Assembly: GCA_030704615.1 (NCBI GenBank)
Contig: CM060734.1
Span: forward strand, 51,522,001-51,586,000
From: Takakia lepidozioides
Taxonomy: Eukaryota > Plantae > Bryophyta
Length of the DNA stretch: 64,000 nt
Reading direction: 5' to 3'
Part shown: positions 21,033-55,987 of the stretch, piece by piece
How the letters are laid out: each line of letters begins with the position of its first letter
How positions within the stretch are numbered: position 1 is the first letter of the stretch
The notes under the pieces: model-generated
Database searches by the model: none
What the model was told of the DNA's origin: nothing
What the model saw: the letters and a program-made list of their open reading frames with translations, nothing else
Program-made: the position numbers and the translations under genes

Positions 21033-24017
21033 TGTCTGTTAGCAATCGCTGTCATCTACTGTCATTTAAGGTTTGTCTTGCAGCTGAGAAAATCCCTTGC
21101 CCAGTTGAATCCATCGGTTGCGTGCGTGTATTCTCTGCTTAGCACTCTTCATTCTCTCTTCGACATTGATGTAGCTCAGTGCCCCTTTCAAGAAACCAAA
21201 GGTGCACGAAAGTGTAGGCCACATGACAGTAGTAGCAGAGGCTGTCTTGTAGGGTACCTTCCATAGCAGGTAACAAACACACCTTCCAGGTTTTCAATGC
21301 AAGACTTGAAACAGGCTCAAATTCATGGCTCTGGATCTGAGGCTCAGAATTCAAACACTCACGAAGAAATTTTCAAAAAGTGTCAGCGTCGTCTCTCTCC
21401 TCCACATCCTAAGCGGCCAAAGACAGCACCTCGTTCTGGATTGTGACCAACGTATGCAGTGTGCACTCTTACCCCACTGTACAGCTCCTATGAGTAGTTG
21501 GATAGAGATGAGTATGGAGTGAAAGAACCAGATAATTTGGTTACGTCCACAGTGCTCAGAACGGATCGTGGAGAGAGTATGTGCGCGTCCAACTGCAAAC
21601 TGAAAGGCCTCTACTGATGAGAAGCCTTTCCCCTTGTGGAAGAGGGAATGGTGATGAATGCAGATACATCACCTTCTGTACGAATGCATGCCACAAACAT
21701 GCATACTTGAGTCTCTCTAGCTAAATATGGTCGGTCAAATAATTTGGAAGGAGCTTTAAAAGGCTAGATCATATCTAGAAAATGTTCTTTCTGGAAAAGA
21801 GAGCTGTGCCTCCAGAGAAAGCTTGAGTTTTCTATTATGTGCACACTAGACCGTGCATATACTTAGCGCCCTTTCAGATCCTTTGAGTCTTGCTGAAATT
21901 ATAGAATTTCCTTACGAAAGTCCCCCTGATCAGACCTCACGTTTGTGGTGCTTCAAGGGAAGTAAGGGGGCCAATTTGCCATAGTATCTAGATCTGGGGC
22001 AATATGTCTGGTTGTTGACAAGCAGGACTCCAACTTTTTTGTGGCATACATATCCATATGATTGATTGCTACATGAACAGCTCGTAGCTCATGATCCTCA
22101 TGCTCCACTGCTTGGAGGCGGAGTAAATTGCATACACTTGAACCTTTATTGGACCTTCAATTGATAGTTTACCACACTGAGGCCACAGTGAGCCGAGAGG
22201 CAATCCTCATTGTATGAGCACTACAGACCCCGGACCTCCCCAGACGTATCTAGACATATCGTTAGGGAGTCTTTTATGAGCTAGCAGCTGTGACTCAATT
22301 TTTATATAGACAACGTAAATTCTCTGACTAAGTGCCCTATGGAAGATCTGTGGCACTGAATTGGGCGCAATTGGAACTGATCTCTTCCAGTAGCTGTGGC
22401 CTTGTAAGAGAGAGTCCAGGCTGCGATTTTCTAGCACACTTCATCGCCGGACTCAGACTGATGATCCCCTTGGTCAACTGGAAGGCCTGATTTATGTGGT
22501 TTATGAGGTTTCTTCAAATGCTAGTACTCTATAGGCGGACTGATTTTATAACCAGTGGGTAGAAAGGCATTAAATCCCAGAATTAGGTCTGGGTGCCCCT
22601 TCAACAGACGGGTCACTCTGGCAGCCAATCCTGCAACATCAACTTGCTCTGGGTAAGACATCAGAGCTACCAAGAACTTAATCCAGGTTGCATAGTCATC
22701 CTTGAGCGCTTTTTTCACTGCCATGAGGTAAAAGATGGGATCAGGCCCTCCATATATTCCATACAGCTCCAGACAGTTTGTCCGATACGCCTCAATCATC
22801 TTCCGACGCATCCGCCATGCGGTAATCCAGATAGACTTCATAGAACGGGTCATGGAGCGTGGGCGTCTCATTGTGATTGCAGGCCGTGCAAAGTCTGGCG
22901 CAAAAACCCTCTTCCCTGGCCCTCTCCGGGTATTCAATTCATGGAGTGTGCCATTAATTGTGAAGTCCTGCAAAACTGAGGCAATGTAATCTTGTCAAAG
23001 GTCTGAAGGTAAGAAAATAAAGCTCTGGAAAAGAATGCTGGACGTTCGAAATATATATCTGGAGATTAAATGGTTCGTGGTTTCAAGTTTCAACCGATCT
23101 CGAGCGTGCCGAGCACACACCAGTAGCAAGCTGCAGCTGCCCTCGCCAAGCTCATCTCTCTACATATACTCCCTCTCCGTTCCATGAGGGCTCGAGTCAC
23201 CCACCGTCGAAGCCTTCAGAAATCCCTGTCAGCTAAGTGTGGTCTCTGTCGGCAGGGACAAGGGACCCAGAGTAGGCCCAGATTCTGAGCAGTGTCTCCA
23301 TCGACTCCACAGCTACACAATAAAGGTACCCCTGCAGCTTTCTTCTCACAATCAAACTATTCACAGCACATTCGGCTATTTATATCACAAGATTGTGGGG
23401 CGGTTATACTGATACTTTTCTTACTAATGGGTATCAAAAACCTTTCAAATCTTAGTCATCTGACACTGACTGGTGTGCCACTGGTGTGCCAGGTATAGTA
23501 AACAAGTCATGCCTGGTTTATGAAATACTGAAGCTGCACATCAGCAATACTAAGTCAGGCTTGAATTGCTAATAGCCGTTTACTGATGGATACAGTCTTT
23601 CGTGTGCATCATAGAACCAGATTTCTATGGTTATCAATCCTGCTATCTCTAAGAACTGGATTGCATGATATAGATCAACCATTGAAAGGAGCTCTTCAAG
23701 AGCAGTTATCTCTTAATTCTGATGGCTCCGGCTAACTTGGACCTGTTATGTTATAATTAACAGTGGTTATCTTTAATTCATGGCCCCAGTAACTGGAGTG
23801 CTAGCGAGGCTGCTAATTAGAAATTGAAACCTAGTTAGCTCTGCTGACAAGCCCCATGCAGTTGTCCGCTGGGAAGACCCTGTGTACGCTCCTGAAAAGA
23901 GGAGAGTTGCGTGGGCACTTGGGGCAGGTGGCCACGCCACAACTGTAGCTAAACTGACTGTGAGTGCGGCCGCTCAGAGTTGTGACAAGTGTGGTCGGTC
24001 TTGTAGCCTTGTTTAGA
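21033..24017. repeat. Tandem duplication unit B (~3.0 kb), carrying PAH copy 3
   Basis: Collinear with 17648-20727. Confidence 0.9.
22521..22973 (-). CDS. Small protein with a single C-terminal Sin3-type PAH domain (copy 3, open frame)
   Basis: Uninterrupted frame. The first ATG gives MRRPRSMTRSMKS...PIFYLMAVKKALKDDYATWIKFL...GHPDLILGFNAFLPTGYKISPPIEY (~116 aa). An acceptor ttttgcag lies near 22968. Expression unknown. Confidence 0.6.
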   Translation of the reverse strand: MQDFTINGTLHELNTRRGPGKRVFAPDFARPAITMRRPRSMTRSMKSIWITAWRMRRKMIEAYRTNCLELYGIYGGPDPIFYLMAVKKALKDDYATWIKFLVALMSYPEQVDVAGLAARVTRLLKGHPDLILGFNAFLPTGYKISPPIEY

Positions 24018-25899
24018 CAACGAGTTTCTGTTGCTTTACAAAAGGCTCAAGCTCTGTCTATTTTACATAGGGAGAGGTGGCCCGGGCGGCTTCATTTCGC
24101 CTCCTCACACTTTCCATCCTCTTTTCTCTTGTCTGACCTTCCAGATCAGGCAACAAACACACCTTCCAGGCTTTTTTAAGACTTGGAACAGCCTGGGCGG
24201 GACTGTCCCTAAATATAGTTCCTCTAGACAGCCAGAACTGGATCCAAGGGCTCAAGTCCATGGCTCTGGGATCTGATGGTCAGGATTCACTAGGAGATTT
24301 GAAAAAAGTGTCACGGTGGTCTCTCTACTCCGTATCGTAAGCGGCCAGAGAGAACACCTCGTTTTACTTTACTGTGACCCACGTGTGCGGTGTGCATCCT
24401 GAACCCATTGTACAGCTCTTACTGAGTAGTTGGATAAGAGATGCGTATGAGAGAAAGAAGCAGAGAATTTTGTTACGTCCACAGTAGAACGGAGTGGAGA
24501 GGCGCGTGGAGAGACAGTGTGTGTGTCCAAGTGCAACGAGTGGAGCCTCGGGGGCTGAGCTCTTCCAGCGATGGGCCCTCTATAAGTAGGATGCCTATCG
24601 CCTGTTCACTCTGTCCTTCTTCTCTGTCGGTTCTCAGATAACCTTGAGTTCCTCCTCCTTTTTCCACCGCTTTAATGTGTACAGTCTGTGAGAGCGGATG
24701 CTGCATACTAGCAGATCACTAGTGTGTGAAATTGGGAGAGAAGGTTGTAAGCACCGGTGTGAGCGGAAGAGGAACATGTGCACCTCAAGCGAGTCTGCAG
24801 AGAAGCCGCCATCAGAAGCGGTGAAGCGAGGTGCGCAGCAGGAGAGCAAGAACGCAGTGCGCACACGGCTGCTGGCCATCTCACAGACAGATCCCACTGG
24901 GGTGTGCTTGCTGGTGCAGTCACCCAAGGTCGTCCCCCAGGGAGCTGGGCTGGAGGAGAGTGGTGACAAGTTCCGCTTCAAGTTAATGGCCATTTCTCGT
25001 GTTCAGACTGCAGGGCTACCTTACTAGGATTTGCTTCTTGGGCTGTAGAACAATTGAAAGGCTCTTGCTGCTTCTTCATCTTGGTGATCTTCAACCTTTG
25101 AGGGATAACACTATTTGACAATGCAAAATAGGGCTGCAGGCAGTTTTGCTACTTGCAATTTCTTTGCTTGCTCACCAGACACCCATAGGCAAGTGTGTGC
25201 AACGCTGCAGGTCAAGGCTGCAGCATGGGCCCCAAAGAGAGTGAAAAGCTTCCAGTGGAAACAACTTTGTAAGCATGAAAGTTGAACTCCTGACCTCTTT
25301 TCAATGAAAAGGCGAGGGGGTGTGTGTATTATGATGTTCTCAACCTGTATGAAAGAGATCATTGGCCTTAGCTCGCAGATATCACAAAGGCGGCCACTTC
25401 AACCAACAAATTTTCTCTTCTTCCCCTTTCCTAGTTCACATCCCCCCTCTTCCTGTTAAGCTAGTTCGGGTGATCACGTGGGATGGTCCTCAGCGGAGAT
25501 TTATTGCCACTTATTCCCACGAGTCCTCCGTACACTCCAGACCCACGCTAGGGAATTCCAAATAGGCCTTGATGTGAAATGCAGCGCAATTCACTTGATC
25601 AGATGCCAATTCAATTGAACTAACCCTAATTTGCAACTCAATTGAATTGCTGACTGCAATTCAATTGAATGTAATCTATAATTTTTAACGCAGTTTTGTA
25701 TATAATATATATAATATATTATCATGTGTATGTATATGTATATGTATCGTATACACATATACATACGAGAGTATAAGATGAATATACATGCTGGCCCGTC
25801 TATTCCTGCTGCCCGTCCAACCTTTGCTTGTGGTAAGGCCTAAGTCACGACATGAGTCGCGTACCCTAAAGGAGAGATATATACTACACATATATACTA

Positions 25900-26150
25900 G
25901 TCGAGGTATCGTCATTAGGTTGTAGCCCTGTTTGATATATCTACATAGGTATAGTATTTCATTTTACAAGAAAAGTTGGCCAAATTAATCTATATTTATG
26001 CGGAGGTATCGTCATGAGACAGTAGCCCTGTTTAGTATACCACCAGAGGTATAGCGCATGACTTACAAAGAAACCTGGTCAAATCAGCCTATATGCAGGT
26101 TGAGGTATCGTTATGAGGTAGTTGCCCTGTTTAGTATACCTACAGAGGGA
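25900..26150. repeat. Three ~100-bp subterminal direct repeats inside the left TIR end
   Basis: GAGGTATCGT(C/T)AT.AG..(T/A)GT(A/T)GCCCTGTTT...TATA at ~25903, ~26003 and ~26102. Confidence 0.75.
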
Positions 26151-26559
26151 TTGGCAACGTACGCATTCTTATCTCTGTTTTTATCCCAATCCTCGCTTGT
26201 TAGATTCTACAGCTGTTCATCGCGTAGCACTTGGCTACATGATGTCTATTGTTTCTGGTTTACTCAATAAGAAGAGTGGGATAGAAATGTCAAGTGAGTT
26301 TTTCATGGTACGTGTCATGGTTGGGTGGACAGGAAGAGGCCAAGGAAGAGGCAGCAGCAGAGCTGACACATTTGGTAAGGCAACCGTGTCCATCCTGAGT
26401 ATGAATGATGCTGCACCCTCGGAAATACAAGATGCTTCAAGTAAGTTCAAAGAGCTTTCTTCTCTTTCTGGTGTGCTGGATATGTATGCGGAGGACAACT
26501 AATATCACCTTAGGTGCCAAGGCAGAAACAAACAACCAAACCCTATTTCATTTCATTTC

Positions 26560-28282
26560 TTTCTCTCTCTCTCTCTCTCGTGTTTCTCCCTGTCCTCTAG
26601 GAAGCCTATTGACATTGGGTGGACTTGAAACGGGAGTACATTAATGTCTCTGTCACTAAATGCCGGCCTTCTCACCTCGTGTCCTTGTTTGTTTCGACCT
26701 TAAGCGTTTTGCTTCAGGTAAGGTAGTGCATTGGATTTAGTTGGAAAGCTTGGGGCCTTTCCCTCTTTAGAATATGCCTACACGGGCCATTCCCTGCAAC
26801 TCCCTGGAGTGTGATCTCTGAATGGTAACAAGCGGACTCCTACCGCTTGGGGGCAGCTCCTCCGCCCAAATTGGGCAGTCGTATGCTCTGTCTAGCATAC
26901 TCGGCACTTGGGCTCGGGTTGGTTCCTGTGCTTAAACTTATGGCCTGCGAAAACAATCAAAAATTTAGCTCCTATCAACATCAACACTCCTCAGGGTGAT
27001 CCCTGGGAATTGGTTACTTATGCCAAATCTAGGGCTTCATGTGTAGTTTTTGGGGTGAATCCCAAGATGGACGATGTGTCCTTTAAAACTACATGCTCTA
27101 CCTTAGGCTTGGATTTCATGGTTAATGGTACCATCTCGAGACTTGATAACAGGGGTACGTTGAAGGTTGCAATGACCAAAAGTGCTTCTAATAGAGTCCC
27201 GCATCAATTCAATCTCAAATAAGTTCGTCCGTGATTTCTTGTTTGACAATTGTGAAATTATCAACAAGGGTTTGAGGTACGAGCATAGTATCTGGCTAAA
27301 ACTGAATTTGAAGGGCGGCATGAGTACTCTGCTGGACCTCTTTGTCCGTTGTGTTTACATGCCCACAGAGGGGACCCTGTGTGCTGACGCAGACAAGGCC
27401 TCACAAGTTTTGAAGCTGGACTGTGCTTCGTTCCTTGCCAAAGGTCAGGTGGTACTATTGGGGGACTTCAATGCCTGGGTGGGCAAAGGGATCCATCAGG
27501 ACGATATCATTGGACCTTTTGGTGAGGACGAGCTGAATTCTAATGGCAGACGGTTAATTAACTGTCTAGAAGAGCTTCAGCTTTTGACCTTGAATAACAG
27601 GACAAGAGGTGACCAAGTGCAGTGGACTCGTGAGAAACCCCAAACTGGGGAACGTTCCATTGTGGACTATATCATAATGGACAAAATTTTGTTCCCCCAG
27701 TGTGCCGATGTGTTGATCGACAGAACTGATATTGGTACCTCTGACCACTTGCTGGTTTGGACTGACATCAAAAGGTGTTTTCCCACCACCAAGAGATCTG
27801 TGAAACGTTCGATTCGGAAGTGGCGCATAGAAAAATTCCACAATGAGGAGGTTAAGGCTGAGTACGTCCAGGCCTTGCAAGAGGCTCTCCCTCATTTTGT
27901 CCAATCGCTCCAAGAACTTCAGTCACGCTCTGTTAACGCAATAAATAAAGTCGAAAGAGCAATGGACTCTTGGGAGAATTTCGTTTCCTCCGTGGCTGAC
28001 AAGATCATTGGGAGGAAACTAATTGTATGCGGTAGAGCAGTTAGTTGGTGGACTAATGAGATTAAACTCAAGATAGCTGAGAGAGGAGCCCTCTATAAAC
28101 AGTGCTGCAATTTGGAAACCAACAGAGAATTGTGGGCGAGGTACTGCCAGCTCCGTAAAGATATCAATCAGCTTGTTAGGTCTCAGAAAAAATTATACTG
28201 GGACAAGTTATACAGTGAAATAAACTCAAACCACCATGGTGGTAATGACAAGAAATTATGCTTGGCCCTTCAACGTTTGTAG
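26560..28282 (+). mobile_element. 3'-truncated RTE/RTEX-like LINE (5' region plus apurinic endonuclease domain) nested in the TIR element
   Basis: ORF 27182-28282 has EEP endonuclease motifs VVLLGDFNAWVG, SIVDYII and TSDHLLVW, followed by the WW linker. No RT domain follows. It begins after a (CT)n run. Confidence 0.85.
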
Positions 28283-29289
28283 TCACGCTCTGTAGAGGTA
28301 TTGAGCACAAGGGGAAGCAATATAACTTGGCATAGGGGCTGATATGGACTTGACATTGATCTTCCATGTGCACACCTCTCTCCATGTGCTGCTCATCCAC
28401 CACTCTACCCACTGCCTGCGTATCGCTGGTTTGACTAAGTGACTGGTCACTAGATCACCAGTCACACCTTCATAGGAGTGGGCATGTGGCTTGCAAGTGT
28501 TGGGCTGCCAATAACAAACCCACTACAACGTTGCACTACAACCATAATCTCATCACTATTGCAGAACTCAGCATTCATGCTCTCGATTCCCACTCCAGCC
28601 TTTCAAATTCCTCAATTTCCATTCAGCATCCCATGAACCCCACATGCAGCCCGAGTGTTATTACAAGCACGTTATGTGCTTTGGTAAATACTGTTGTTGG
28701 AATGAGGCAAAGCCCTCAAACCTTGGCCAAATGTTTATGCAAACCTCCTTAAACTGCTTGTGAGCTAAATGGGTTTGATGTGCATGCCAGGGCTAGCTCC
28801 ATCTCATTTTTTGGGGGACCCTTTGGGAGACAGATGGCTTACTCAGAAGTGCTTCAGCTTCCTCTGATTCACTGGCAAAAGAAATATGGCTAGCTCTGAA
28901 AGAAACAGACAATTTCAAACCTCACAATTGATGAATGGCTTCCCCTGCATCATCATGTACTCCCCTGGCACTAGTATCTGGCCCCCATGACACAACCCCA
29001 GAGAAAACAAAAGACATGTTCATTTCGAGAATTATCTCCAATAATCTTGTTTCGATACCCTTACAAAGGTATCATGTTGCAATTGGGCTGTGTGTTCGAT
29101 AGAGAGTTTAATATATCAACTCTTAGACGTTGATACTCTTACAGTGGTATCATGTTTGGTATATGTACATAGCCATATATTGGCACTATAAGGGCTTGGC
29201 AGTATGAAATTGGTTAGTGTCTCAAGGTGCAGATGAAACATGCTAACATATTTAGATTGTAAGCAACACCCACCAGTCAAACTCATCCT

Positions 29290-29435
29290 CAGAAGAGATT
29301 GATACACAAAAATTTCTCAGGGTCGTTGGTGCGCAGGCTTTTGTCAAGGGCTTGATATCATCATCGGTCAACTCAAAGTCAAAGACATCAAGGTTCTACT
29401 TCAATCTCTCCATCTTGTCTGACTTAGGATTTTTA
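29290..29435 (-). pseudogene. Captured last exon of an aldo-keto reductase (M6PR/S6PDH/xylose reductase-like)
   Basis: The minus strand reads NPKSDKMERLK*NLDVFDFELTDDDIK, then after a frameshift LDKSLRTNDPEKFLCINLF*. This parallels the AKR C-terminus IPKS....RLKEN..VFDF.L...D......D...R.N.P..F. Confidence 0.7.
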
Positions 29436-30233
29436 TTACTGTATGCAAAATTCTTAGATTATAATAGAGGGTTCTTAAAAATGAGGCAAGTTGGTCATCA
29501 TTGTCTCATATGTGGGGCAGACAAAGATTGTTGGAGATAAAAGGCGGCCTCATGAGCCTCACGCTGTGCACTTCCCAATGAAACCCAACAATTTCACAAC
29601 CCTCCAAAGATCGTACAACCCAGGCCCTGCCCCCAAGTAATATGGTTTGATGTTTAGGGTGTATGGTTCAATATGGACAATGGATATGATGATGACATTT
29701 ATTTAACAGAAATCCTCAAAGTACGTGACATAAAATAATTATCTTTGAATGTGATTGTCCCACTTATTCAGTTAATCACAATTACATACAAGAGCTTGTG
29801 TAATTAAAAGTTGGAGAGCTTCCCTACTTAACACGGTATTACCAATGAGGTCCAATTGATCAAAATATCTATGTTCATGCGTTGCCAAACCACAATACCG
29901 AGACATGTAGTAGTGGAGATGAAAACAAGAGATCGAATCCTTCCCAACCTTTCCAATTTCATAAGCTTGTGCACGGACACGAACCATGTCAGGAATGAGT
30001 TCAGCTCATTTGGTAGGAAGGTCATGCAAACCACCTGCACATCGCCACCTTTGATTCCCACGAGGCCCCAAGTCTTGGTTACCAATGTGTCGGGGGTCTT
30101 CCCTGAATCGTGGGTCATCAATAAGGTGGCTGGTCCATCTACATGATCAAACACATCACCACATTAGAATAACATTCCAATGTAAATTGTAGCTTAACAA
30201 TGAAAGTACAAACAAGAGAAAACCATGAGCTTA

Positions 30234-31509
30234 CCCATGCAAACGTTCATACTCACGAAAGAAACGAGCAGGAACATGTGATCGACGAGATCGACCGTTT
30301 TCATTAATCGTGCGAACTCGATGTCCATTCCAAATATTCACGTATTCATCAACAGCTTCTTGTAGTATGGGCATATATATGTCAATAAAAGATTCTCGTT
30401 GCCACGGATCGTCCATATCCAATAATCCATCATTGACCATTGCTTGGAAGCAATTTTTGTAGTAGAACATTACCTTCTCCCATAGATGCCACCAAAAGTG
30501 TTCAATCCTCTAACGTGGTGATTACACCACACAAAGTATTAGGAATATGCACAACATTACACACTCAATGATTAATAAAGATGAACCAAGAAATATGACA
30601 GAAACGTAAAGTTGATATGCAAGATAGAATTGTATAGAACACTAACCTGATTGTGTGTAGAAGACCCAGTCAAGTACGGATTGGGTGTTTCAGAACGTGT
30701 GGCTTCAATGTGTTGTTTTATAAGAGAGTGCTCTACTGCAAAATTAGATCGAATTCGTAAAGGTGCTCCAAACTTGGAAACTGCATCGTGATATCATTTG
30801 AAAATGGTTTTTTCTTTCTTGTTTCTTGCAACGTTCGCCCATAAAACAAAATGAGAGGCCCCATCAATGCCAGCATGTACTCGAAGTCCAAACATAACCA
30901 ATTTGTCATAAGCTGCACCACGAATTGCACACATGTTTTAATTTGCCTACAATTTTGTGCGATATGTAATGCAAGAAAACGTCTTGCATGTGCATCTTCA
31001 AAGAACATTAAGATGCATGAGATAAAATACTTACAGTCAATGTGCCATAGAGCCATAGGCATTGTCACATTATACTGAGTCCTCCGAATTGCCTGTGCCC
31101 TTCTCCTACGCTCATAATGGTAGGGTGAGATGATTTTCAAAGCTTCCCCCATCTTCCTTCGAGGAATCTGCCAATTTGACCTCCTTAAGGCAGATTGCAC
31201 TGTTCTCATTCCCCAATTTGTCCCATTCTCTTCAATAGGAAGTAACTCTTGAATCTTTTCACACAAGCGTTGGACACTCAATTGATGATGAACTTTGAAA
31301 GGAGACCCTTGGACTTCTGATAGCAATCTTCTCAATGGTCGTACATCATCAAAAGAAAGGGCAGTGGCGATTGATTTCATTGTGGCACCCTCATTCAACA
31401 TTGCTTCCACATAAAGTACTAAATCATCCACTACTTTATCACCATCCAAATGGTTGTTTTCCATGCTCACATGATCTGTCTTATCTCTGCTTAATAGCCC
31501 CAGTGCCAA
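30234..31509 (-). pseudogene. Spliced IS3/IS481-like DDE integrase (transposase of the TIR element), inactivated
   Basis: Exons ..31035, 30912-30647 and 30509-30234 (GT-AG) give MPMALWHIDSYDKLVMFGLRVHAGIDGASHFVLW...FK*YHDAVSKFGAPLRIRSNFAVE...GSSTHNQRIEHFWWHL...EYVNIWNGHRVR. There is a TGA at 30796-30794, and the second catalytic D is now N. Confidence 0.85.
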
Positions 31510-33924
31510 TGCCTTCGACCTTGCCCTTGTTGTAATTGTTTGCTGTTAATTCTGTAGTCACTGCATCCACTCACACATTCCCCATAGGACTTACGTCACT
31601 AAAGTTCACATAGGCTATCAAGTAGATGAACCAAATGTACTTTGAAACAACAACTACTCTATCCTAAAATGTATTAGCAAACCACAGTACACAATGTGGG
31701 CTGGTTGAAGACAAACCATGTGATCAAGCTCTTTCTTTCAGTGTGTGTATTGAGGAGCGTTTGGTAACCCACTCTACTACCCCTAAAGTTCTCTCCTCAA
31801 AACTCATGAGTCACCTGCACGTACACAAGAACTACAGCTTTAGCTAAAATGATATCTTTATCAATGATTGGGGGAACTCATGCCAATATGGGAATGTGCT
31901 TACTCATGGGCAGATCTTGTCATTTGGTGATCCAAGAAGGCTTCCATCATACATAGCGCCACCACCGCTCCACCACCGCTCAACCCTAAACTTGTTGTTG
32001 CATTCTTCTCTCGTTACTTCTCGTCCTCCAACTGATTTGATCCTTTCACTTTTAGGGCACCTCTGCCCTAAAAACCCTTCATCACTTCATTTCTCTCTCC
32101 CTTTCCCTCGCTCTCGCTCTCTCTCTAGTATATATCTCTCCTTTAGGCTACGCGACTCATGTCGTGACTTAGGCCTTACCACAAGCAAAGGATGGACGGG
32201 CAGCAGGAATAGACGGGCCAGCATGTATATTCAGCTTATACTCTCGTATATATATATGTGTATACGATACATATACATATACATATACATGATAATATAT
32301 TATATACAAAACTGCGTTAAAAATTATAGATTACAATTCAATTGAATTGCAAATTAGGGTTAGTTCAATTGAATTGGCATCGCAATTCAATTGAATTGGT
32401 ATCGCAATTCAATTGAATTGGTATCTGATCAAGTGAATTGGCATCTGATCAAGTGAATTGCGCTGCATTTCACATCAAGGCCTTTTTGGAATTCCCTACC
32501 CACGCCACACTATTTGGTTATTCTCTCATGGCTTCATTGATAACCTAATTGGGATCCGGGTCACTGGCGTTGGAAGGAGACCGGAGCCACAGGGGCTCAA
32601 TATTTTTTTGTCTATATACTGCAAAAATTGGTTATATGCTGCCTTGCTCCACCGGCAACATACCGGTAGCTCAAGGGCCACCCAAATCTTACATTCAATG
32701 GGATTTGATGCCAAAGACCGCTTCCGGACATGGTGCAGAGTTTGGGACAGAGGCAAGGCTAGGAAGGTGTCTATGTTCCTGTGGCTTGCAATGTATGGAG
32801 GGGTCGCTACTGCTGTTTGGTGTTCTAAAATGGGACACTCTCCAGTTTGTTAGGTCTGCTTGCAACATGACGAGACACTACAACATTGTCTCTGGTCTTG
32901 CAAATTTGCTCACCATACATGGAGACACCATGCCCGCTTAGAAATTGGCTATGTTTTGTATTCTATGTGGTTGGCAAAGATCATTGGTACACTGTCAAGC
33001 TATGTATGTACCTGTTACACACAGATTTCTGCCAATGTTTAGGTTATAGGTTGACATGAGTGTGCATTTTGCCAAGCATGAATTGTACGTTCTTCCTCCA
33101 TTGCAATATGCTATTTCATGCTGCCTTCTACTTTACTGAATTGAACATAGAACTCCGAAATATCTTTATTCAGATAGGGACTTAGAATCCACTTAGACTC
33201 AGACGATTCCCACAACAAATGTATAGGGTTACAACTGCAACCTGCCATCAATATCCTACCTTAATGGCATCCGACCAGGACTGAAGGCTGAAGGCCATAC
33301 ACCTATACAGGAATTGCGACCAAACTAGATGCTCTGTCAACACCCATCATCTCCTTGCCTTTCTGTGGTCTAGCCATATGTTTGACAATTTTCCAACAGT
33401 GAGAAATGGCGAATTTTGCTTGTGAGAAAAATCCATCTTTAAGCTCACTGGCTTCTGAATTGCTCTTTAATGCTGTGGAGATGCCATTAGGATGAATATG
33501 AGTACAAAACAAGGTCCGGGCAAAAGAAAAATGCCGCAATTGATACTCGGACTCCCTTACATCCAACCTTGATCCACTTGTCAAGTGCATGTGCATTTCC
33601 AATAGTACACGTTACAATTAGGTGAGCCTTATCACCTCATCATGCTCAACATTGTCACTCGCAAGGAATTGCTGCCTATCTTACCTGAAAATGTTGTCAC
33701 TACACCCTCAGAATGAGCTGTTTACTTCTGATATAGTGCAGTCTGAGTGGATTTTAAAACCTTCCACAATGAGCATGTGTTATTACATTTCAAGAGATTC
33801 ACATCCATGTCAAGTACTTACATCTCCTGTAATCTACTATGAAGATGCACAAATCACACAATACATCATAGTCCCTCTGTGATCATAATAGAACACTTCT
33901 TGCTGTTCGGTTTACTCGAAGAGA

Positions 33925-34284: not shown

Positions 34285-37021
34285 CAGGCAACAAACACAC
34301 CTTCCAGGCTTTTTTAAGACTTGGAACAGCCTGGGCGGGACTGTCCCTAAATATAGTTCCTCTAGACAGCCAGAACTGGATCCAAGGGCTCAAGTCCATG
34401 GCTCTGGGATCTGATGGTCAGAATTCAAACAGTCAACTAGGAGATTTGAAAAAAGTGTCACGGTGGTCTCTCTACTCCGTATCGTAAGCGGCCAGAGAGA
34501 ACACCTCGTTTTACTTTACTGTGACCCACGTGTGCGGTGTGCATCCTGAACCCACAGTACAGCTCTTACTGAGTAGTTGGATAAGAGATGCGTATGAGAA
34601 ATGAAATGAAATGAAATGGTGCTTTATAACGTCCGCGGAAAGCTCGTAGAGCATATGGGATAAAATGGAAGAAAACATGAGAGAGGAACAAATCCAGAAA
34701 CCACAATTAATGTTCTAGCGATTGTCTAAGGGTGAAGGCCTCGTGCAGGTAGGCTGCCAAGCATTTCTGATCCTCATAGTGAAAGACATCAGTGAGAGTT
34801 TGGGTTCCACTGAATAAACAGTGAAATCTCCCACGGATCTCGTAGTTTAGAGGGCAGTAGAAGAAGAAGTGTTCTTCAGTTTCAATTTCCTTGCTGCGCC
34901 CTATGCAAGCTGGACATAGGCGGTCCTCCCGTTGCAGGTTTTCCCATCTGCCAGTCTCTATCCGTAGGTTGTGGGAACCCACCCTGAACCGCCCCAATGC
35001 CCTCAAGAGGGAAGGAGATAAGGGTGCTGAAAGGTAATTTGGTCTCAAGATTCTATCATCGCGGAGCACCAAGAATGTCTCTCGATAGAAGTGGAGCTTT
35101 GTCGTGAGAGAAAGAAGCAGAGAATTTTGTTAGGTCCACAGTACAACGGAGTGGAGAGGCTGGAGCCTCGGGGGCTGCGAGCTCTTCCAGTGATGGGCCC
35201 TCTATAAGTATGATGCCTATCGCCTGCTCACTCTGTCCTTCTCTGCCGGTTCTCTGACCTTGAGTCCCATTTCCTTTTTCCGCACCGCTTTAAAGTCTGA
35301 GAGCGGATGCTGCATACTCGCAGATCACTAGTGTGTGAAATTGTGAGAGAAGGTTGCACCGGTGTGAGCGGAAGAGGAACATGTGCACCTCAAGCGAGTC
35401 TACAGAGAAGCCGCCATCAGAAGCGGTGAAGCAAGGTGGGCAGCAGGAGAGCAAGAACGCAGTGCGCACACGGCTGCTGGCCATCTCACAGACAGATCCC
35501 ACTGGGGTGTGCTTGCTGGTGCAGTCACCCAAAGTCGTCCCCAAGGGAGCTGGGCTGGAGGAGAGTGATGACAAGTTCCGCTTCAAGTTGATAGCCATTT
35601 CTCGTGTTCAGACTGCAGGGCTACCACACTAGGATTTGCTTCTTGGGCTGTAGAGAACAATTGAAAGGCTCTTGCTGCTTCTTCATCTTCCTCATCTTCA
35701 ACCTGTGAAGGAAACACTATTTGACTATAAAATAGGGATGTAGGCAGTTTTGCTACTTGCAATTTCTTTGCTTGCTCACCAGACACCCATGGGCAAGTGT
35801 GTGCAACTCTGCAGCATGCCCCCACAAAGAGAGTGAAAGCTTCCAGTGGGAACTACTCTGTGAGCATGGAAGTTGAAACTCCTGACCTCTTTTCAATGAA
35901 AAGGCGAGGGGGTGTGTTTGTATCATTATGATGTTCTCAACCTGTATGAAAGAGATCATTGGTACAATGTCAAGCTATGTATGTACCTGTTCCACACAGA
36001 TTTCTGCCAAGGCTAGGTTAGGTTGACATGAGTGTGCACTTTGCCAGACATGAATTGTTTGTTCTTCCTACAGTGCAATATGCTATTTCATGCTGCCTTC
36101 TACTTGAATGAATTGAACATAGAACTCCGAAACTTGTATCTTTATTCAGATATGAGGGACTTAGAATCCACTTCTCAGACGATTCCCACATAGGGTTACA
36201 ACTGCATCCTGCCATCAATATCCTACCTTAATGGCATCTGACCAGGACTGAAGTCTACATTTGATCTCCAGCTCAAGGCTGAAGGCCATACACTACAGGA
36301 ATTGCTACAAAACTAGATGCTCTGTCAACACCCATCATCTCCTTGCCTTTCTGTGGTCTAGCCATATGTTTGACAATTTTCCAACACGGACAAATTGTTA
36401 GTTTGCTTGGGAGAAAAATCCATCTTTAAGCTCACTGGCTTCTGAATTGCTCTGTAATGCTGTGGAGATGCCATTAGGATGAATATGAGTACAAAACAAG
36501 GTCCAGGCAAACGAAAAATGTCGCAATTGATACTAGGACTCCCTGACATCCAACCAATCCACTTGTCAAGTGCATGTGTGCATTTCCGATAGTACAGGTT
36601 ACAAGGTGTGCCTTATCACCTCATCATGCTCTGCAATTATCCTTGCAAGGAATTGCTGCCTGTCTTATCTGATAATATTGTCACTACACCCTCAGAATGA
36701 GCTGTTTACTTTGCAGTCTGAGTGGATTTTCATTAGCCTAAAATTTTCAACAATGAGCATGTGTGATTACATTTCAAGAGATTCACATCCATGTCAAGTA
36801 CTTACATCTCCTGTAATCTACTATGAAGATGCACAAATCACACAATACATCATAGTCCCTCTGTGATCATAATAGAACACTTACTTGGTGTTCGGTTTAC
36901 TCGAAGAGAGGATGGTGGAGTACCAGCCCTTGAGCACAAAGAAGGCAACAACACGAAACAACCCCATAGACACCAGCTCCAGCAAAGCCTGTGTGAGCGA
37001 TGGCTGTGGTGACATGCCAGC
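34285..37021. repeat. Copy B (native copy) of the TSC10 3'/downstream duplication
   Basis: Aligns to 24147-25365 + 32988-34247. Confidence 0.88.
34598..35104 (-). mobile_element. 5'-truncated RTEX-like LINE 3' end with (ATTTC)n tail
   Basis: ORF 34707-35072 reads RFRVGSHNLRIETGRW...RLCPAC...ETEEHFFFYCP. Short TSD (~TGAGA) by comparison with the empty paralogous site at 24441-24470. Confidence 0.85.
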
Positions 37022-45600: not shown

Positions 45601-48600
45601 AGCTATTGGATCTGCATCTGCGCAGCTCCCTTGCAGATTTACGTAACATGTGTCAAGATGGTCCTCAGCTGGACCTTTCTGATAATGGTAGGAAGTTGTT
45701 TGACTCCTTCCACGGTTGTGGTGTGCCAAGCTGACTGGGAGTGTGGTCTAGTCAACTTTGTCTGTGGTGAAAATGGTTGATGTAGATGGTGCCGAACTGA
45801 GGTGGCTCAGGAGATGCATGGGTGGGTACGAGTGCAGGACAGCAAAAGGAACACCTACGAGTATTGCTGTTGCGTGTGGAGGCAACCTTATGTGGTCTTG
45901 GATCATGCTTACCTGATTTTCTCCCCGTTGCTGGTACCCCTTCAAGCCCGATGGTGGTGGGGGCTGCAGGTGCACCTGTGGCCAGTCCAGCACTGCGGGA
46001 GGAGACTGCTAATACCATTCACCAAGCCTGCGAGTAATGCTGCCTCCTCTTTTCCATTTGTTGGTTTTTGGTCTCTGTCAACTCCTATATTTTGTTTACT
46101 TTGATGTAAGCAGCAGTGTGTCAGACTAAGGATGGGAGAATGGGGTTGTGTTGGGTTGAACAGATACATGCTGAAAAAGCGTGCAGATGATACAACACTG
46201 TTAAAGATACTGGTGAGGGTGATTGATCTGATTGGCAATACTGGTAAGAGTGCTAGCCCCTCCCTCCCTACTGCCCTTTGTCCTCTAGATGATGTTACTT
46301 GCATTTTGCATGGGACTTGCTAGTCTTGGGTGGTTTTAATCTACTATCTTGTGGCAGGAATGGATGTGTCTCACTTCTTGAACAACCTTTTAATTGAGCT
46401 CTGCAGGTAGTTCAGAGTATAACGGCTGGCTTTTGAACCGGCAAATTTTCGAAGCTGATGCTAAAACTCTTAAGGAGCCACATGTCAATTTTATTACCAA
46501 AACTGAAACCAAGGGAAGACGCAGGTGCATGTTTGGAACTGGTGCCCTTTACTATTACTTGCATTTTGTGGGAAGTGTGTCTTTTTGGTCCGGTACGGGT
46601 TAAGTTTGAAGGAGAAAGTAAGGTGTAAAGCTAAAGGGAGGCCCGGTGAGACAGACCAGCGTGGATGGTGGTGGAGAAAGTATATCTGCACAACCTCTGG
46701 CGCAGCAGTCAAGGGGGCTTTCAGGCAGGCCCAGCTCCCATTCACATAGCTCTACTATCCAAGGATCTTTTGAATCTATCCCTACATAGCTACGCAGCTG
46801 TCCGCTCGTGAGTTCCCATACTCATTTTTCCACTACTTCTTGTACCAAGGCAGAATCTGAGGAACATGTGAGATGTAGAGAGATGCACCTTCATTTAATG
46901 GGCTATTTTAAGATGTAGGCCGCAAATGTTGGTAAAGCAACCCATTTTGGAGACTCCTAACTAGCGGAATGTACAAAGTTGCTGGCCCTGACATGATACT
47001 TGATGCAACCCTACGGTTAGCTTGTTATTCGATATATAAGAAATTCTTTGCAGTTCATTTGAGAATCTAGTCTATCAAGCTCCAGTGCTGCACTATTGGC
47101 AAGACGAAACTTTAACAAAACTGGAGTACACATTGCAACTGATAGACAGTCAGTTTTCCACTGTACAGAAGTGCAGGAAGTAAACTTGGGCTGATGTTGA
47201 CGCGCTACCCGACTTTGGTGAGCGATTGCATGCCTCAGCTGACTCGTAGCTTGCAAGAGGTTGCACCTACCGAGGATGCAGCCTTGGGTGCCTGCATGGT
47301 CCTGGCATTGACACCCCTCTTGCGAACTGTGATGCAGGTGTCTATTATGTTTTCACTCTTTCCAGCTCTGGTTGATCACTTTCCAGGCATTGCTGTGATC
47401 AGTGACTCATGCTTCAATCTCATGAAGTATGCAGTAAGGTGTTCAGCTGTGGTTTGCAAGACATTTCTATTCTGAGCCTTGTTTATGGCTATTGGCAGGA
47501 TTGGAATGCGATGACATCATTTCTACTTGCCTTGCTTGACAGGTAAGGCCTCCATAGTTTTGTTTCAAGCTTACGAGTCAGTGGCTTTTAGCTACAGAAG
47601 CCAGTGCAGAGGGCAGTGTATGACAAAACATGTGGCTCTGGTTGTTGTTGGCTGGCGGGGTATTGGAGTCCAGTGCGCACCATGAGACAGTCAAAGCGCA
47701 AAACGCCATCACCGAGGTTTGCTGAAAATCTTCACCATGGAACAAATTTTCTCAGATTTCCATTCGCTCCTGGAGACTGTTGTGTGTGTATTTTCAGTTA
47801 TATCGGGGGAGAGTAGAAATCTGACTTCCATCTGAACTGTTTGGTGTCCACAGCTGTTCTGTCTGTTTAACATCCTTTTTCGGGCAGCACCTTTGAGCTC
47901 TTTTGCGAGCTCGGGGGACACTGTGGACTGCACAACATACACTACACTAATTGGGAATCTCAAGGAGAAAGTTCTGGCCACTCACAGTGGCACTGGGACT
48001 GCTCACTGGCGGTAAGAAATTCCAGCTGTGTCCCTGAGGGTGGGTGAGTTTATGATCTGGTGAGCTTTGTAGATGCTACAAGCTCTTTGCCATTCAGATT
48101 TTAGTCTAGGTCTAATGGTACCCACATGGTTTGATGCTGGCAGATACAATCTGATGGCTCATGGAATGCTTTTATTTTTGGTATTGCCACCTTCCTCGCT
48201 TAACTGTACGTGGGATGCAACGATTATTACAAAGACCAGAGAAAGTATTGCTGGTATGTCCTCCTGCTGACACTTGGAAGTAAAATTGCTCTTTGTCATC
48301 TTCCTTTTATAATTTGGTGACACAAATAGTATTAGGGCTTTGAAATTGATCCTTGAGCTGTGATGCATTTGACAGGTGGATTTATGGGCAATTTGACAAG
48401 CGAGCTGCCACCTCTTCGTCCATTGTCAGTGGTTGCTCTATCGTTTCTACTGCAGGCCTCATCTGGCAAGACAGCACGGAATGGGGTAATCGGGACTTCA
48501 TCATGGCCACAAACTTCCAATAAGGAGAATTTAACTACCTCAATGAAAAGTACGATTAGTGCAGTGTTCAAGGACCCTGGCTTTGGTGACAGGTTGGTCA

Positions 48601-51600
48601 AGCATCTTGCATTGGATCACAACTATGGAGAAGGGCACAGTGTGTACCAATCCTCAACTATGAACGATGTTGGGTTGACAGCATTAATGCCTTATGTTAA
48701 GCGTGAGTGGCCTTACACCAGGACTTGGGACTCCACAAGTTTGGGAGAACAATTTTCTTATGCTTATGCCAAGCTCTTCAAGTCTCTTGTACGAGAATGT
48801 GGGGCGCTTGTGCTGCAAGATTTACGGACCCCTTTAGTGGATGCAGCCAATGCTGTGCAAGAACGAGGCAGGCAATGCATAGCTGCAGAGATAATAGGTG
48901 GGCTGCTACGTTCAGATGTGGGGTGTGTGGTTGAAGCGTGGCATGACTGGCTAAGCCCTCTGTTGCGCAAGGTTCTTTTGCATTCCACCGTCGAGTCTGC
49001 CTCAGAATGGGCAGCTTGTGTGCGATTCGCAATTGGAGGCAAGGGCTGCAGTGGCCGCCATGTGCCGGTGCTGCGCTCAAGTATAGTGAAGTTCTTGGGA
49101 GAGACTTTGCCAGCAGGAGCAGCCACTAGTCTGGTAACTAAGCGCCTTATGCTACTGCAGGCTGCACTCCTTGAGCTCGGGCATGACTGCGAACTTGAGT
49201 TCCAGGCTGCTCTCCTTACCGAAATCATAGGTTATATGACTCATCCAGCATCTCAGGTAAGTTTTCTTAGTATAAGCCGTAAGTCCTTTCCCAACAGTTG
49301 ATTGGTATAATTTGAATGTTGCCCCATGTTGGTCAGCAGACCTGTGGGAACATTGCACGGTAAAGGACATTCCAGCTCACAAAGCAATCCTTGACTGGAT
49401 AATACAGGTGCGGGAAGCGGTAGGCAGCATTATGTGCATCCTTGGTGCCAACCTCTTGGGTGCCAGTGAGGAGATTCAAAGTGCTGGTAGAGTGAATGAC
49501 TGGAAGATACTTGTGATAGAGGGTGCACAATCTGCTGCTGCCATCATCCAAAGCAAGGGCGGAGATGTGGGTAAGACGTCTATTGATGATGCATCCAGTG
49601 CTTCTGCGAAAGAGGCTCTGAAGCGGATTGACACGGTAGCCTCCATGCTCGTTCCTCTGTTTCTACATGTTCCGTTCTCCATTCTGTATCAAAATGCATC
49701 TAAAAATGCTTTTGGGACTGTGAATCTGTCGTAACTTTCTTAACTACTTTGGTAGGCCAAGGAAGCATGTGGGTGGGGGTTGGGTACCTGCTAACAAGAG
49801 AAAGCGGTATGTGCTTGCAGACATTACACTTCGTGGTGGCAAGCATACGATCAGGAAATGCTGCTACTTTGATGCACATCCTTCTTGGTGTCTTCTGTCC
49901 AGTGCTCTCTATGCAGGTCCAAATCTAGCACTCCTTTTGAAAATTCAGTTCACTGTGTTGAACAATGAGGGATGTTTTGTATGCTTAGGTACCTGGAAGT
50001 GTTAGACTACGAAGACTTCTTTCCAACCGCATGTCCTTTTCCCCAAATCTGTTTTCTTTACTTTGACCAACATCAAGTAGAATCTAACAATTTTTGCATG
50101 GAAAGGAGCATGCAATGCTGTGCCCATAGTTGACAGAAGGACAATCACAAGAAAGGGATAGTACTTTTGACAGTTTGAAGTTGTCCATATGCTATCAATT
50201 ATCCAGTGACACTTAAGAATGGTCGAAGGAGATGCAAAGTCTTGAGTGGTTGTCTTGACAGATAGTCAGTGGCCATTCCTTTACATTCTTTTGTTGGTAA
50301 TAATTTTAACGCATGCTCCTTGTTGCTCATAATCTTTGAAGACAAGATTTTTTCATGAGTTTTCATATGCTCTGGCATAGAGCCTGTGTAAGTGGGAGGG
50401 GATATGTATTGTGATGTAGAGAGTTTAGGGTGGGGGTGCTGAAATGTGACGGGGGAGGGTTGAATGTATTGCACAGGACATATGGGACAAGGATGTGAAG
50501 GCCTTGGCAAAGTCAGCTTTACAGCTGCTGATGTGGCAGCCCTTCCCACCAGAGCACTTGGAAGGTGCTGTGACAGGGGTTCTGTTGGCTAGCAACCACA
50601 GCAACTGGCATACGCGTGTTGCAGCTTTGACTTTCTTGCCGCCATTCATGTTCAGGTGTGTGTCATTATTTGCTCTCTTGCACAGACTGCCTTCCACATT
50701 ATACAACGAGTATTGATGAGATTGGGTTGGGGCATGGTGCAGGCACACCTTCACCATGGCCACTGCTCATTTGACTGCCTCGTGGGATCAAGTGCAACGT
50801 TTGCTCTCTGACCCTCAGATTGAGGTATTTCTGGGGGAGTACAAGGAGAGGTGGCTTTAGTGGTCCAAAAGTAATTGGAGATGTTGTGTTGCAGAACAGT
50901 AGATTTAGTCCATTTTTGTATGTCTATTTTCTTAATCATGATGTAACAGGAAAGCAAACCTCTGCAGGTGAGAGAGCTAGCAGCAACTACAATGGCAGGC
51001 CTGATGAAGGGAGCCGGCAGTAAGTTTGCTGATGTATTCCGGAAACAGGCACTGGAAGCTGCTGTGGCTCTGCAAGCTACCAAGCTGAAAACCAGGTATT
51101 TGGGTGACTCCTGCCTTGGCCTTCACTGTCCTTGAGCTGGAAGTTCGTGAAACTGGACTCTGGGGATCTAACAAGATATATGGCCTGGTCTGTGGGCAGG
51201 AGAAAAACTGCAGGAAGTTCGACTGCAGCCACACATGGAGTGGTCTTAGGCGTGGCTGCTTGTGTGCTATCTGTGCCCTATGACATGCCTCGGTAAGTTC
51301 CACCCTAAATTGCTCTGCATTTGACAGACAGCTGCTTGTTATCATATGAAGGTGCTATTATATATGTAGCTCACATAAGGTGCAAGTCTGATTGGTGTAC
51401 CAAGGACATGGGTGCCAACGGAGTAGCAGAACAAGAGGAGCCAAATCAGGAGGGCCAGGCAGGCATGCCTAAGCAGTCAAAAGTATGCTGAATGAGAGGC
51501 AGTAAGGACTCGTGTGCTTGAGGTGGGTGCAGGTGGCTTCCTGAGATAGTGACGGTGTTGGCGCGTTTTAACCACGAGCCGTGGCCCATTCGAGGCACAG

Positions 51601-54320: not shown

Positions 54321-55924
54321 TCAGTTGGAGGTGCTGGAGGGATTCGTGGAAGACTGTACGCACTTGACCTGCCGCCTAATGGGTCTCATGCTCTCCAACA
54401 GATATGACAACCCTTGCAACACATGCAGCCGGCTGTAAGGCACACCAGTCTTAGCAAGTGCATTTCCGCGCGAGTCCAGTAGCACAAAACATGGAACGTA
54501 CTTGATCTCATACTGCAATACCTGCCATCACCCTGGTCTTATCAGCCCGTGGACATGCATGTTCAACCTACAAAGTTGCCCTAGAACGGTTTTAAACGAT
54601 GCCCAAAGGTTGCATCATCCAAACAGATTTGACTCTCGCTGCTAGGCTTGTGCATGAGCATGTCAATACCTTCATTTTATCCCCTTTAAACACTTTGATC
54701 TTCACGTCCAACATTCAGAATACTTGCCACATACCCATGCCCTCATCATGGAATCTGGATTGGAGGCAGATGCATGTGTGGGGAGTGCACTTGAAGACAT
54801 GTATGCCCATGTTCGCCTACCCTCACACTAAGGTCCTAAGCAATTACCACCGAGTCATTATATAACGCCAGAAGCACCAGCATACAGATCTATATATATG
54901 TGAGAGTGGAGGAGAACTCCAGGCTTACTATTCAAAGCTAAATGCTTGAAGGAAAAGGATTGACCGTATCCATGCTTTGTGTGCTCTCTCACTGAATCTG
55001 GAAAGCCAGGAGTGAGCCCCTCACAAGGCAGTATCTGTTCTCTTTTCTTCTGCCAACTGGGCGCACATCTGTGGCGGCAAGGCTATAGCAAATAACTTCT
55101 AAATTGTTCAACTAAATCCAAGCACTTACAGTGACTGCTCTATGAAAGAGGAAACAAAGACTAAAGAACAAAGCAAGAGGAGTAAACAACAAAAAAAACA
55201 ATGGACACTACAGGGATCGTCGGTATGGATGTCTTTGCAGGAAAAGCATATCCCTCAAACACAAAACCCACACAAAAGGATTGCCACGCTGATGATAAAT
55301 GCAAGAGTAAATTGACAGCACACACACCTCTGGCAACCATTTCTTGTTCTCGACATCCGCCATGACAATGTGCAACCAATCCTTGTTCTTCGCCTCCACC
55401 TCCATCACCACCTTCAACAGAGAGCGGCACAGCGTACACTTCGGGGAATAAAACTCTAACAGTGTGGCCTTAGGTCGACTAGCCAAAGCCTGCGCTAGGG
55501 CGCGTTCTTCAGCCTCGCCCTGCTCCTCCGCTGAGAGAGGGCGCGCACCGCGCTCGCTCTTGTGGCGCCACCGCCCAAGACTCTCGCCAAGACCCTGGAC
55601 GTGAGGAACAAATTGTTGCAACAAAGACAAACCCCCATGATTTTCCCCAGTGGCATCCGCCATGGCCGCCACACGCCCAAATGCAACGCTACCCTGCCCC
55701 CGAGCGCTAGATGCCGGAGAAGGGTGAGGCCATCCCGCAATTAACCTCTGCCCAATGTTGTGCACAGACTTCCAAGGCCATGGGAGCTCAAGCTCAAGCT
55801 TGCATCCTCCTGGGCACCAGTTCCTCACCACCCAATTTCGCCCCCTGCCCCTCCCGTCCTGCATACTGTCCCTTGCACCTTCCCTCCCTCCATGCGTGTG
55901 ACAACCCAACAACAAACAGGGCAT
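54321..55924 (-). CDS. Thioredoxin-fold protein with CTLC motif (HCF164-like superfamily), 2 exons, ~265 aa
   Basis: Exons 55924-55328 and 54521-54321 are in frame: [16 protein letters not shown]...[17 protein letters not shown]...[11 protein letters not shown]|[28 protein letters not shown]. The start codon is ambiguous (56071, 55924 or 55864). Confidence 0.85.
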
Positions 55925-55987
55925 CCCATGTGTGTTTGAGTACCTATTTGGAAGAATCCAAAAGGTAGGGAAGACTATTAAATTTTG

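What the first reader, a model, noticed from the sequence alone, without database searches (positions are those of the whole stretch)
25549..32498. Intron-containing IS3/IS481-like (IS3EU-type) DNA transposon in a land plant, with a 7-bp TSD
Seen: a complete element with ~340-370-bp TIRs (TAGGG...CCCTA), an exact 7-bp TSD and a multi-exon integrase-fold gene. Its motifs are WHID...HAGIDG, P.RIRS(D>N) and S.HNQRIE..W, the DDE layout of IS3/IS481/retroviral integrases and not of hAT, MULE, CACTA, Harbinger or Mariner. Known: as I recall, IS3EU elements are described mainly from animals and fungi, with TAY..RTA ends and 6-bp TSDs. Inference: this may be an undescribed plant lineage or sister superfamily with a different TSD length. 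This is the best candidate for a new system in the window.
Basis: partly seen in the sequence, partly recalled or inferred. Interest (0 to 1): 0.82.

Follow-up and report, generated by a model that had tools for sequence, protein, structure and literature searches.

The report
Dead moss GingerRoot transposon copy
This is a real but broken copy of a jumping gene, likely in a moss, of the GingerRoot/IS3EU kind already described in clubmosses and mosses, and its 7-base insertion footprint is a published minority variant of that kind, so it is ordinary rather than new.

Summary
In detail: a 6,950-bp element with TAGGG...CCCTA ends, 338/373-bp inverted repeats, a 7-bp duplication (CCCACGC) and a spliced integrase-type transposase gene (Pfam rva_4). 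The claim of an undescribed plant lineage does not hold. GingerRoot (Cerbin 2019, PMC6839031) is this kind of element in Selaginella and mosses: TA...TA ends, mostly 6-bp TSDs but 7 bp in 5 of 77 copies, GC-rich targets and captured gene fragments. Kojima and Bao (PMC10045372) merge it with IS3EU (99% bootstrap). The transposase core matches the printed Selaginella GingerRoot peptide at 53 of 115 positions (counted by eye) and groups with Ceratodon and Calypogeia proteins. The host is likely a moss. This copy is dead (two stops, catalytic Asp to Asn). Majority contigs of other copies, about 1% different, keep both codons open and the Asp, and one probable RNA run splices four introns. The element carries a flavodiiron gene fragment and a LINE piece. 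Whether 7 bp is this family's rule could not be tested, because no genome is held. The scan has reported GingerRoot elements in other plant genomes.

The parts
25542..25548 (.). Left target-site duplication CCCACGC (7 bp, 6 of 7 G/C)
   Evidence: empty-target contig, table 5c
25549..25886 (+). Left TIR, 338 bp, begins TAGGG; 3 copies of a CAATTCA(A/C)TTGA motif
25903..26172 (+). Three subterminal ~99-bp tandem repeats (62-73% identity)
   Evidence: family D1
26122..26502 (+). 126-codon open stretch of unknown origin; no Pfam or PDB match; no evidence that it is a second element gene
26544..28281 (+). Piece of a high-copy LINE with the endonuclease ORF (27176-28279), cut off before reverse transcriptase; left boundary approximate; no TSD found
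   Evidence: PF14529 E 4.8e-7; summed contig depth about 30-300 times that of the rest of the element in X1 and loose ends at 28281
28465..28602 (-). Fragment of a flavodiiron (diflavin flavoprotein A) gene, likely captured from the host
   Evidence: phmmer to PDB 6h0d E 5.5e-9
29277..29429 (-). 153-bp segment shared with other contigs of both probable RNA runs, weakly like the C-terminus of an aldo-keto reductase; likely a captured exon
   Evidence: loose ends at 29277 and 29429 in X6 and X9; PDB 3wg6 E 0.48, weak
29772..30138 (-). Transposase coding exon 4 (C-terminal); premature TGA at 30006-30008
   Evidence: joint 30138/30235; matches relative P0013 on both sides of the stop
30235..30509 (-). 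Transposase coding exon 3 with the catalytic Glu (E235, 30501-30503)
   Evidence: PF24764 E 1.5e-12; joints
30647..30912 (-). Transposase coding exon 2; premature TGA at 30794-30796; second catalytic Asp replaced by Asn at 30743-30745
31035..31560 (-). Transposase coding exon 1 (inferred ATG at 31464; first catalytic Asp D143 at 31036-31038)
31561..31903 (-). GT-AG intron upstream of the inferred start codon
   Evidence: joint 31560/31904 in X6
32126..32498 (-). Right TIR, 373 bp, ends CCCTA; 6 copies of the CAATTCA(A/C)TTGA motif
   Evidence: contigs of other copies leave the sequence at 32498/32499
32499..32505 (.). Right target-site duplication CCCACGC

Best explanation
This is a dead copy of a GingerRoot (IS3EU/GingerRoot lineage) TIR DNA transposon, likely in a moss, from a multi-copy family whose other copies keep an open DDE transposase frame and would likely have mobilised it by cut-and-paste. 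Shown: the ends, the 7-bp duplication, four GT-AG introns spliced in one probable RNA run, three inactivating changes in this copy that the majority contigs of other copies lack, diverse flanks at the terminus, and internal-deletion derivatives. Inferred: the transposase's predicted N-terminal helical domain binds the repeated CAATTCA(A/C)TTGA motif in the TIRs; the D143-D200-E235 core cuts at the TA ends and joins them to a GC-rich target with a 7-nt stagger, which the host fills in; the internal gene fragments were captured from host genes, as in Selaginella GingerRoots.
For: Pfam rva_4 on exons 2-3, the same family as 10 of 10 relatives scanned. Core matches the Sl-GR-005 peptide printed in PMC6839031 at 53 of 115 positions by eye; SL_GR-020 has the same YNV..PM.LWH.DSYDKL stretch. 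Quick tree of 49 rows (48 best of 103 core-covering hits): SH-aLRT 99 for a 15-row group with Ceratodon P0282 and 99 for a 30-row group adding Calypogeia P0275, apart from beetle and chytrid proteins. GingerRoot has TA...TA ends in 72 of 77 copies, 7-bp TSDs in 5 of 77, GC-rich targets, and gene fragments in 22 of 77. Host gene groups with Physcomitrium, Ceratodon and Sphagnum clusters at 100/99. X2, X5 and X6 all differ from this copy at 30008, 30745 and 30796, which read Gly, Asp and Gly. X2 shows 15+14 contigs leaving the terminus with unlike flanks. The model of relative P0279 (pLDDT 81) matches retroviral intasomes, TnsB and IstA (E 7e-7 to 1e-5).
Against: TIRs are 338/373 bp against 100-150 bp in Selaginella GingerRoot. 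The TSD is 7 bp, the minority length. No published GingerRoot or Repbase IS3EU sequence was in my tree; the link to them rests on a by-eye comparison and shared Pfam family. The intact frame is read from separate majority contigs, not from one contiguous copy. Splicing rests on one run whose RNA status is a guess, though spliced joints argue it is RNA; X9 did not cover the gene. The fold is of a relative (44% identical over 317 aa), with TM-scores of only 0.25-0.38 over the whole chain. No transposition was observed.
Confidence: 0.93

Rival explanations
1. A moss sub-lineage of GingerRoot whose transposase makes a 7-bp stagger as a rule (comparable to hAT7 within hAT), which would deserve a subfamily name but not a new superfamily. 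This refines the best explanation and does not exclude it.
For: The one scorable insertion has 7 bp; in Selaginella only 5 of 77 do, so a 7 is more likely under a fixed-7 family than under that rate (inference). TIRs are longer than in Selaginella. TSD-length sub-lineages exist in other superfamilies (hAT7).
Against: One insertion only. 7-bp TSDs already occur in GingerRoot. No paired flanks of other copies were obtained.
Confidence: 0.35
2. The true duplication is 6 bp and the element has one extra terminal C on one side, so the apparent 7 is a register effect.
For: Registers 25549-32499 and 25548-32498 give 6-bp TSDs. In X2, 14 of the 29 listed terminal contigs continue with C after CCCTA.
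Against: It needs asymmetric ends, whereas both ends match exactly at TA. Another copy in X6 has G, not C, before TAGGG. A GC-rich target preference also explains many C starts; the other 15 contigs have G as the commonest first base.
Confidence: 0.1
3. A new sister superfamily of IS3EU, or an undescribed plant lineage.
For: Long TIRs, TAGGG in place of the TAYGG given for rust-fungal IS3EU, a 7-bp TSD, and a bryophyte group separated from animal and fungal relatives by a long branch.
Against: The bryophyte/lycophyte group is the published GingerRoot, already merged with IS3EU. All motifs align with the published alignment.
Confidence: 0.03

Closest known systems
GingerRoot of Selaginella lepidophylla and mosses (Cerbin et al. 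2019, PMC6839031; read: abstract, main-text parts 2-5 of 7, passages, supplementary file 1; its supplementary tables and figures were not held)
   Same: TA...TA ends; integrase-type DDE core, 53 of 115 identical by eye; GC-rich TSD; 7-bp TSD among the reported lengths; size within 3.9-12.9 kb; captured gene fragments; present and transcribed in mosses.
   Different: TIRs 338/373 bp against 100-150 bp; 7-bp rather than the usual 6-bp TSD; exon structure of the transposase resolved here (not described in the parts read); contains a LINE piece.
IS3EU superfamily of Repbase (Kojima and Bao 2023, PMC10045372, passages and supplement passages; Kojima 2025, PMC12730594, passages)
   Same: TA..TA termini; WH.D.YDKL / R.R.D / S.HNQRIE layout; TSD 'usually' 6 bp; one lineage with GingerRoot at 99% bootstrap.
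   Different: TAGGG against TAYGG of rust-fungal families; no second element-encoded gene recognised here (Styx paper PMC10853768, passages, describes an ancestral two-protein IS3EU); no TET/JBP or kinase cargo.
Ceratodon purpureus 'integrase core domain' proteins (e.g. KC19_VG294400, P0282) and Calypogeia fissa CAM6123605.1 (P0275)
   Same: 53% over 164 aa and 44% over 191 aa to the spliced protein; same PF24764 family; same clade.
   Different: Annotated only as hypothetical proteins; their ends and TSDs could not be fetched.
IS481EU (PMC10045372)
   Same: Eukaryotic IS3/IS481-related DDE transposase.
   Different: Parabasalids only; TSDs of about 4, 15 or 25 bp; different motif around the Glu in the published alignment.

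Membership tests
IS3EU/GingerRoot | Termini TA...TA (occasionally TG...CA) | tested here: met
   TAGGG...CCCTA; definition
IS3EU/GingerRoot | TSD 6-8 bp, mostly 6, GC-rich | tested here: met
   7 bp, 6 of 7 G/C; 5 of 77 GingerRoots have 7 bp
IS3EU/GingerRoot | 6 bp as the usual TSD across copies of the family | not testable with these tools
   No genome held; no loci found; read laying gives unpaired flanks only
IS3EU/GingerRoot | Integrase-type DDE core with the lineage's motifs | tested here: met
   PF24764; D143/N200/E235, Asp in other copies; by-eye match to SL_GR and IS3EU rows
IS3EU/GingerRoot | No HHCC zinc finger before the core; first Asp 100-300 residues from the N-terminus | tested here: met
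   D143; no zinc-finger Pfam hit in exon 1; criterion
IS3EU/GingerRoot | Monophyly with named Repbase IS3EU and Selaginella GingerRoot proteins | tested here: inconclusive
   Tree holds only database relatives; the published reference sequences were not in it
GingerRoot (Selaginella families) | TIR 100-150 bp | tested here: not met
   338/373 bp. A descriptive trait of the Selaginella families; it shows a different family, not a different superfamily
IS481EU | TSDs of about 4, 15 or 25 bp in parabasalids | tested here: not met
   7 bp, land plant
Ginger1/Ginger2 | TG...CA termini; 4-bp (Ginger1) or 6-bp (Ginger2) TSD; HHCC/GPY motifs in Ginger1 | tested here: not met
   TA...TA ends, 7 bp, no HHCC
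Bacterial IS3/IS481 | Intronless prokaryotic IS with TG...CA ends | tested here: not met
   Four spliceosomal introns, TA ends; relative P0279 has no tblastn match in 72,556 plasmids at E 0.01

The most novel reading that the evidence does not exclude
A young, still transcribed moss GingerRoot family that makes 7-bp target duplications as a rule, has intact autonomous copies, and controls its own activity by skipping exon 3, which yields a 238-residue product lacking the catalytic Glu. It would be a practical source of a working plant IS3EU/GingerRoot transposase and a natural 6-versus-7 pair for studying target stagger.
Probability: 0.15. Interest if true: 0.35.

Novelty: new member of a known kind. 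Interest (0 to 1): 0.17.

Why it matters
Modestly. It adds a moss family to a superfamily already known from mosses and clubmosses. The useful extras are the read-supported exon structure, signs that intact and spliced copies exist, and a possible 7-bp subfamily. Cerbin et al. found no DDE transcripts in Selaginella but did in two mosses, so expression in a moss is not new either.

Tried and rejected
Whole genome: none held, so no genome-wide TIR or TSD survey. Exact 26-nt TIR pattern in JGI metagenome contigs: 0 matches. Related-loci scan of the same collection: 237 pattern matches, 0 confirmed. Word-index search with exon 3 alone: 0 hits among 6 candidates, while HMMER on representatives found 94. 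Sequence search of PDB with the bryophyte alignment: 0 hits; the wider alignment hit HTLV integrase cores at E 7e-4. Second ORF: 14 internal open stretches gave no Pfam hit below E 0.039 and two gave no PDB hit. TSD around the internal LINE piece: no repeat of 6 bp or more, so nested insertion versus capture is unresolved. No listed holder of the stretch is on record as RNA; X6 and X9 are guessed RNA, and X9 does not cover the transposase gene, which is no evidence either way. My first guess that the stops came from CpG deamination was rejected: other copies have Gly codons there. Literature: 'IS3EU' 62 papers, 40 listed; 'GingerRoot' 13; 'IS3EU'+'moss' 3, none on moss elements by listing; a five-term bryophyte query 0. 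I saw no paper on this family or on a fixed 7-bp IS3EU subfamily in these searches; Repbase and Dfam were not searchable. Dupeyron preprint 10.1101/2021.09.26.461848: passages only, lists GingerRoot as a superfamily.
Full report
Observation. The element runs from 25549 (TAGGG) to 32498 (CCCTA), 6,950 bp. The arms are 338 and 373 bp, with 317 matches, 11 mismatches and 55 gap columns; the gaps lie mostly in a block of CAATTCA(A/C)TTGA repeats, 3 on the left and 6 on the right. Of flank lengths 4 to 12 only 7 gives an exact direct repeat, CCCACGC; the 7-mer occurs 6 times in the window. Contigs in runs X1 and X5 cross a diverged, unoccupied version of the target, and the X1 contig joining 25509 to 32498 carries the 7-mer once (table 5c). 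A single copy cannot exclude 6 bp plus one extra terminal C.

The gene. Contigs of run X6 (RNA by guess) skip 31561-31903, 30913-31034, 30510-30646 and 30139-30234, all GT-AG on the minus strand, each seen in one contig. From an inferred ATG at 31464 the four coding exons give 445 codons with stops at 183 and 368 and D143, N200, E235. Exons 2 and 3 tile the Pfam rva_4 model, and exon 4 matches a relative on both sides of its stop. A model of relative P0279 (44% identical over 317 aa; mean pLDDT 81) matches MMTV and RSV intasomes, TnsB and IstA at E 7e-7 to 1e-5, with low whole-chain TM-scores.

The family. The majority contigs of X2 differ from this copy at 13 listed coding positions of 1,338 (about 1%; 2 rows of that table were not shown). 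Three of them, also seen in X5 and X6, read Gly, Asp and Gly where this copy has stop, Asn and stop. So this copy is dead and the family consensus is open with a full DDE triad, read from separate contigs. In X2, 15 and 14 contigs leave the terminus at 32498 and 32499 with flanks that agree only 0.40 and 0.43 (62 loose-end rows not shown), which fixes the end and implies at least about 15 copies. Internal contig depth is about 600 against 28 in the flank, suggesting roughly 20 copies; the tool warns that depth is no copy number. Joints and loose ends show internal deletions 29337-31659 and 29364-30684 and a third near 29289-31419. X6 also has one contig that skips exon 3 (28 letters on the short side); that form would end six codons after Q232, without the catalytic Glu.

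Cargo. 28465-28602 matches a flavodiiron protein (PDB 6h0d, E 5.5e-9). 29277-29429 is shared with other contigs in X6 and X9 and weakly resembles an aldo-keto reductase (E 0.48). About 26544-28281 is the endonuclease part of a high-copy LINE, without reverse transcriptase or TSD. No second element-encoded gene was recognised.

Host. A neighbouring MFS gene is 72% identical to Physcomitrium and 53-67% to liverwort, lycophyte, fern and gymnosperm hits. In a 24-row tree it sits with the Physcomitrium, Ceratodon and Sphagnum clusters at 100/99, on a long branch. One gene, so: likely a moss.

Comparison with known systems. PMC6839031 describes GingerRoot in Selaginella lepidophylla: 77 intact copies, 72 with TA...TA ends, 100-150-bp TIRs, 3.9-12.9 kb, 6-bp TSDs with five of 7 bp and one of 8 bp, GC-rich targets, gene fragments in 22, and SRA hits in 18 Bryopsida and 3 Lycopodiopsida species. 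Its printed Sl-GR-005 peptide matches this core at 53 of 115 positions, counted by eye. PMC10045372 joins GingerRoot and IS3EU at 99% bootstrap, with TA..TA ends and TSDs usually 6 bp. My quick tree (48 best of 103 core-covering hits, from 238 BLAST hits) groups the protein with Ceratodon (SH-aLRT 99) and Calypogeia (99); it flags long branches and has no published reference sequences. The paper's supplementary tables, which list each element and may bear on TSD lengths by family, were not held.

Mechanism. Shown: ends, TSD, splicing in one run, lesions in this copy, many insertion sites. From established DDE chemistry and inference: TIR binding by the N-terminal helical part, cleavage at the TA ends, strand transfer into a GC-rich site with a 7-nt stagger, and gap fill by the host. 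The Styx paper infers non-replicative movement for an IS3EU-related element (PMC10853768, passages). This copy could now move only with a transposase supplied by another copy.

Verdict. Real, well-formed, and a new family of a known kind. The only open point of note is whether 7 bp is this family's rule. Earlier scan notes on other plant genomes reach the same class; I had found the GingerRoot paper before that look-up and did not check their windows.

Noticed in passing
window:25366-25548 and 32506-32977: The element sits inside a ~656-bp decayed piece, weakly like the C-terminal zinc finger of an L1 LINE (PF13966 E 0.005), flanked by a 10-bp duplication AGATCATTGG (25356-25365, 32978-32987). 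That piece splits a repeat whose uninterrupted copy lies at about 35105-36909. Three levels of nesting.
   Followed up: partly
window:30138-30647: One contig of X6 skips transposase exon 3; the product would lack the catalytic Glu and could act as an inhibitor (untested).
   Followed up: partly
window:28736-29283: Contig depth is several times higher than in the rest of the element, with a 25-bp direct repeat at 29054 and 29132; probably another small repeat inside the element.
   Followed up: no
window:32300-32498: X6 and X9 contigs join 32350 or 32398 to 32446 with other letters between: related elements with shorter, different TIR interiors, possibly non-autonomous families.
   Followed up: no
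window:6583-9489 (-): 969-codon PPR-type ORF with ~303-bp internal repeats.
   Followed up: no
window:13713-16214 (+): MFS transporter gene in two large exons, used to place the host among mosses.
   Followed up: yes
window:17648-20727 and 21033-24018: Tandem duplication of about 3 kb at 87% identity; further duplicated blocks at 40530-41559/56011-56988 and 46970-47074/57727-57833.
   Followed up: no
window:37926-38618 (-), 48357-49298 (+), 55211-56092 (-): Host gene exons resembling a short-chain dehydrogenase, proteasome activator PA200 and a thioredoxin-like protein (names recalled from motifs, no call).
   Followed up: no
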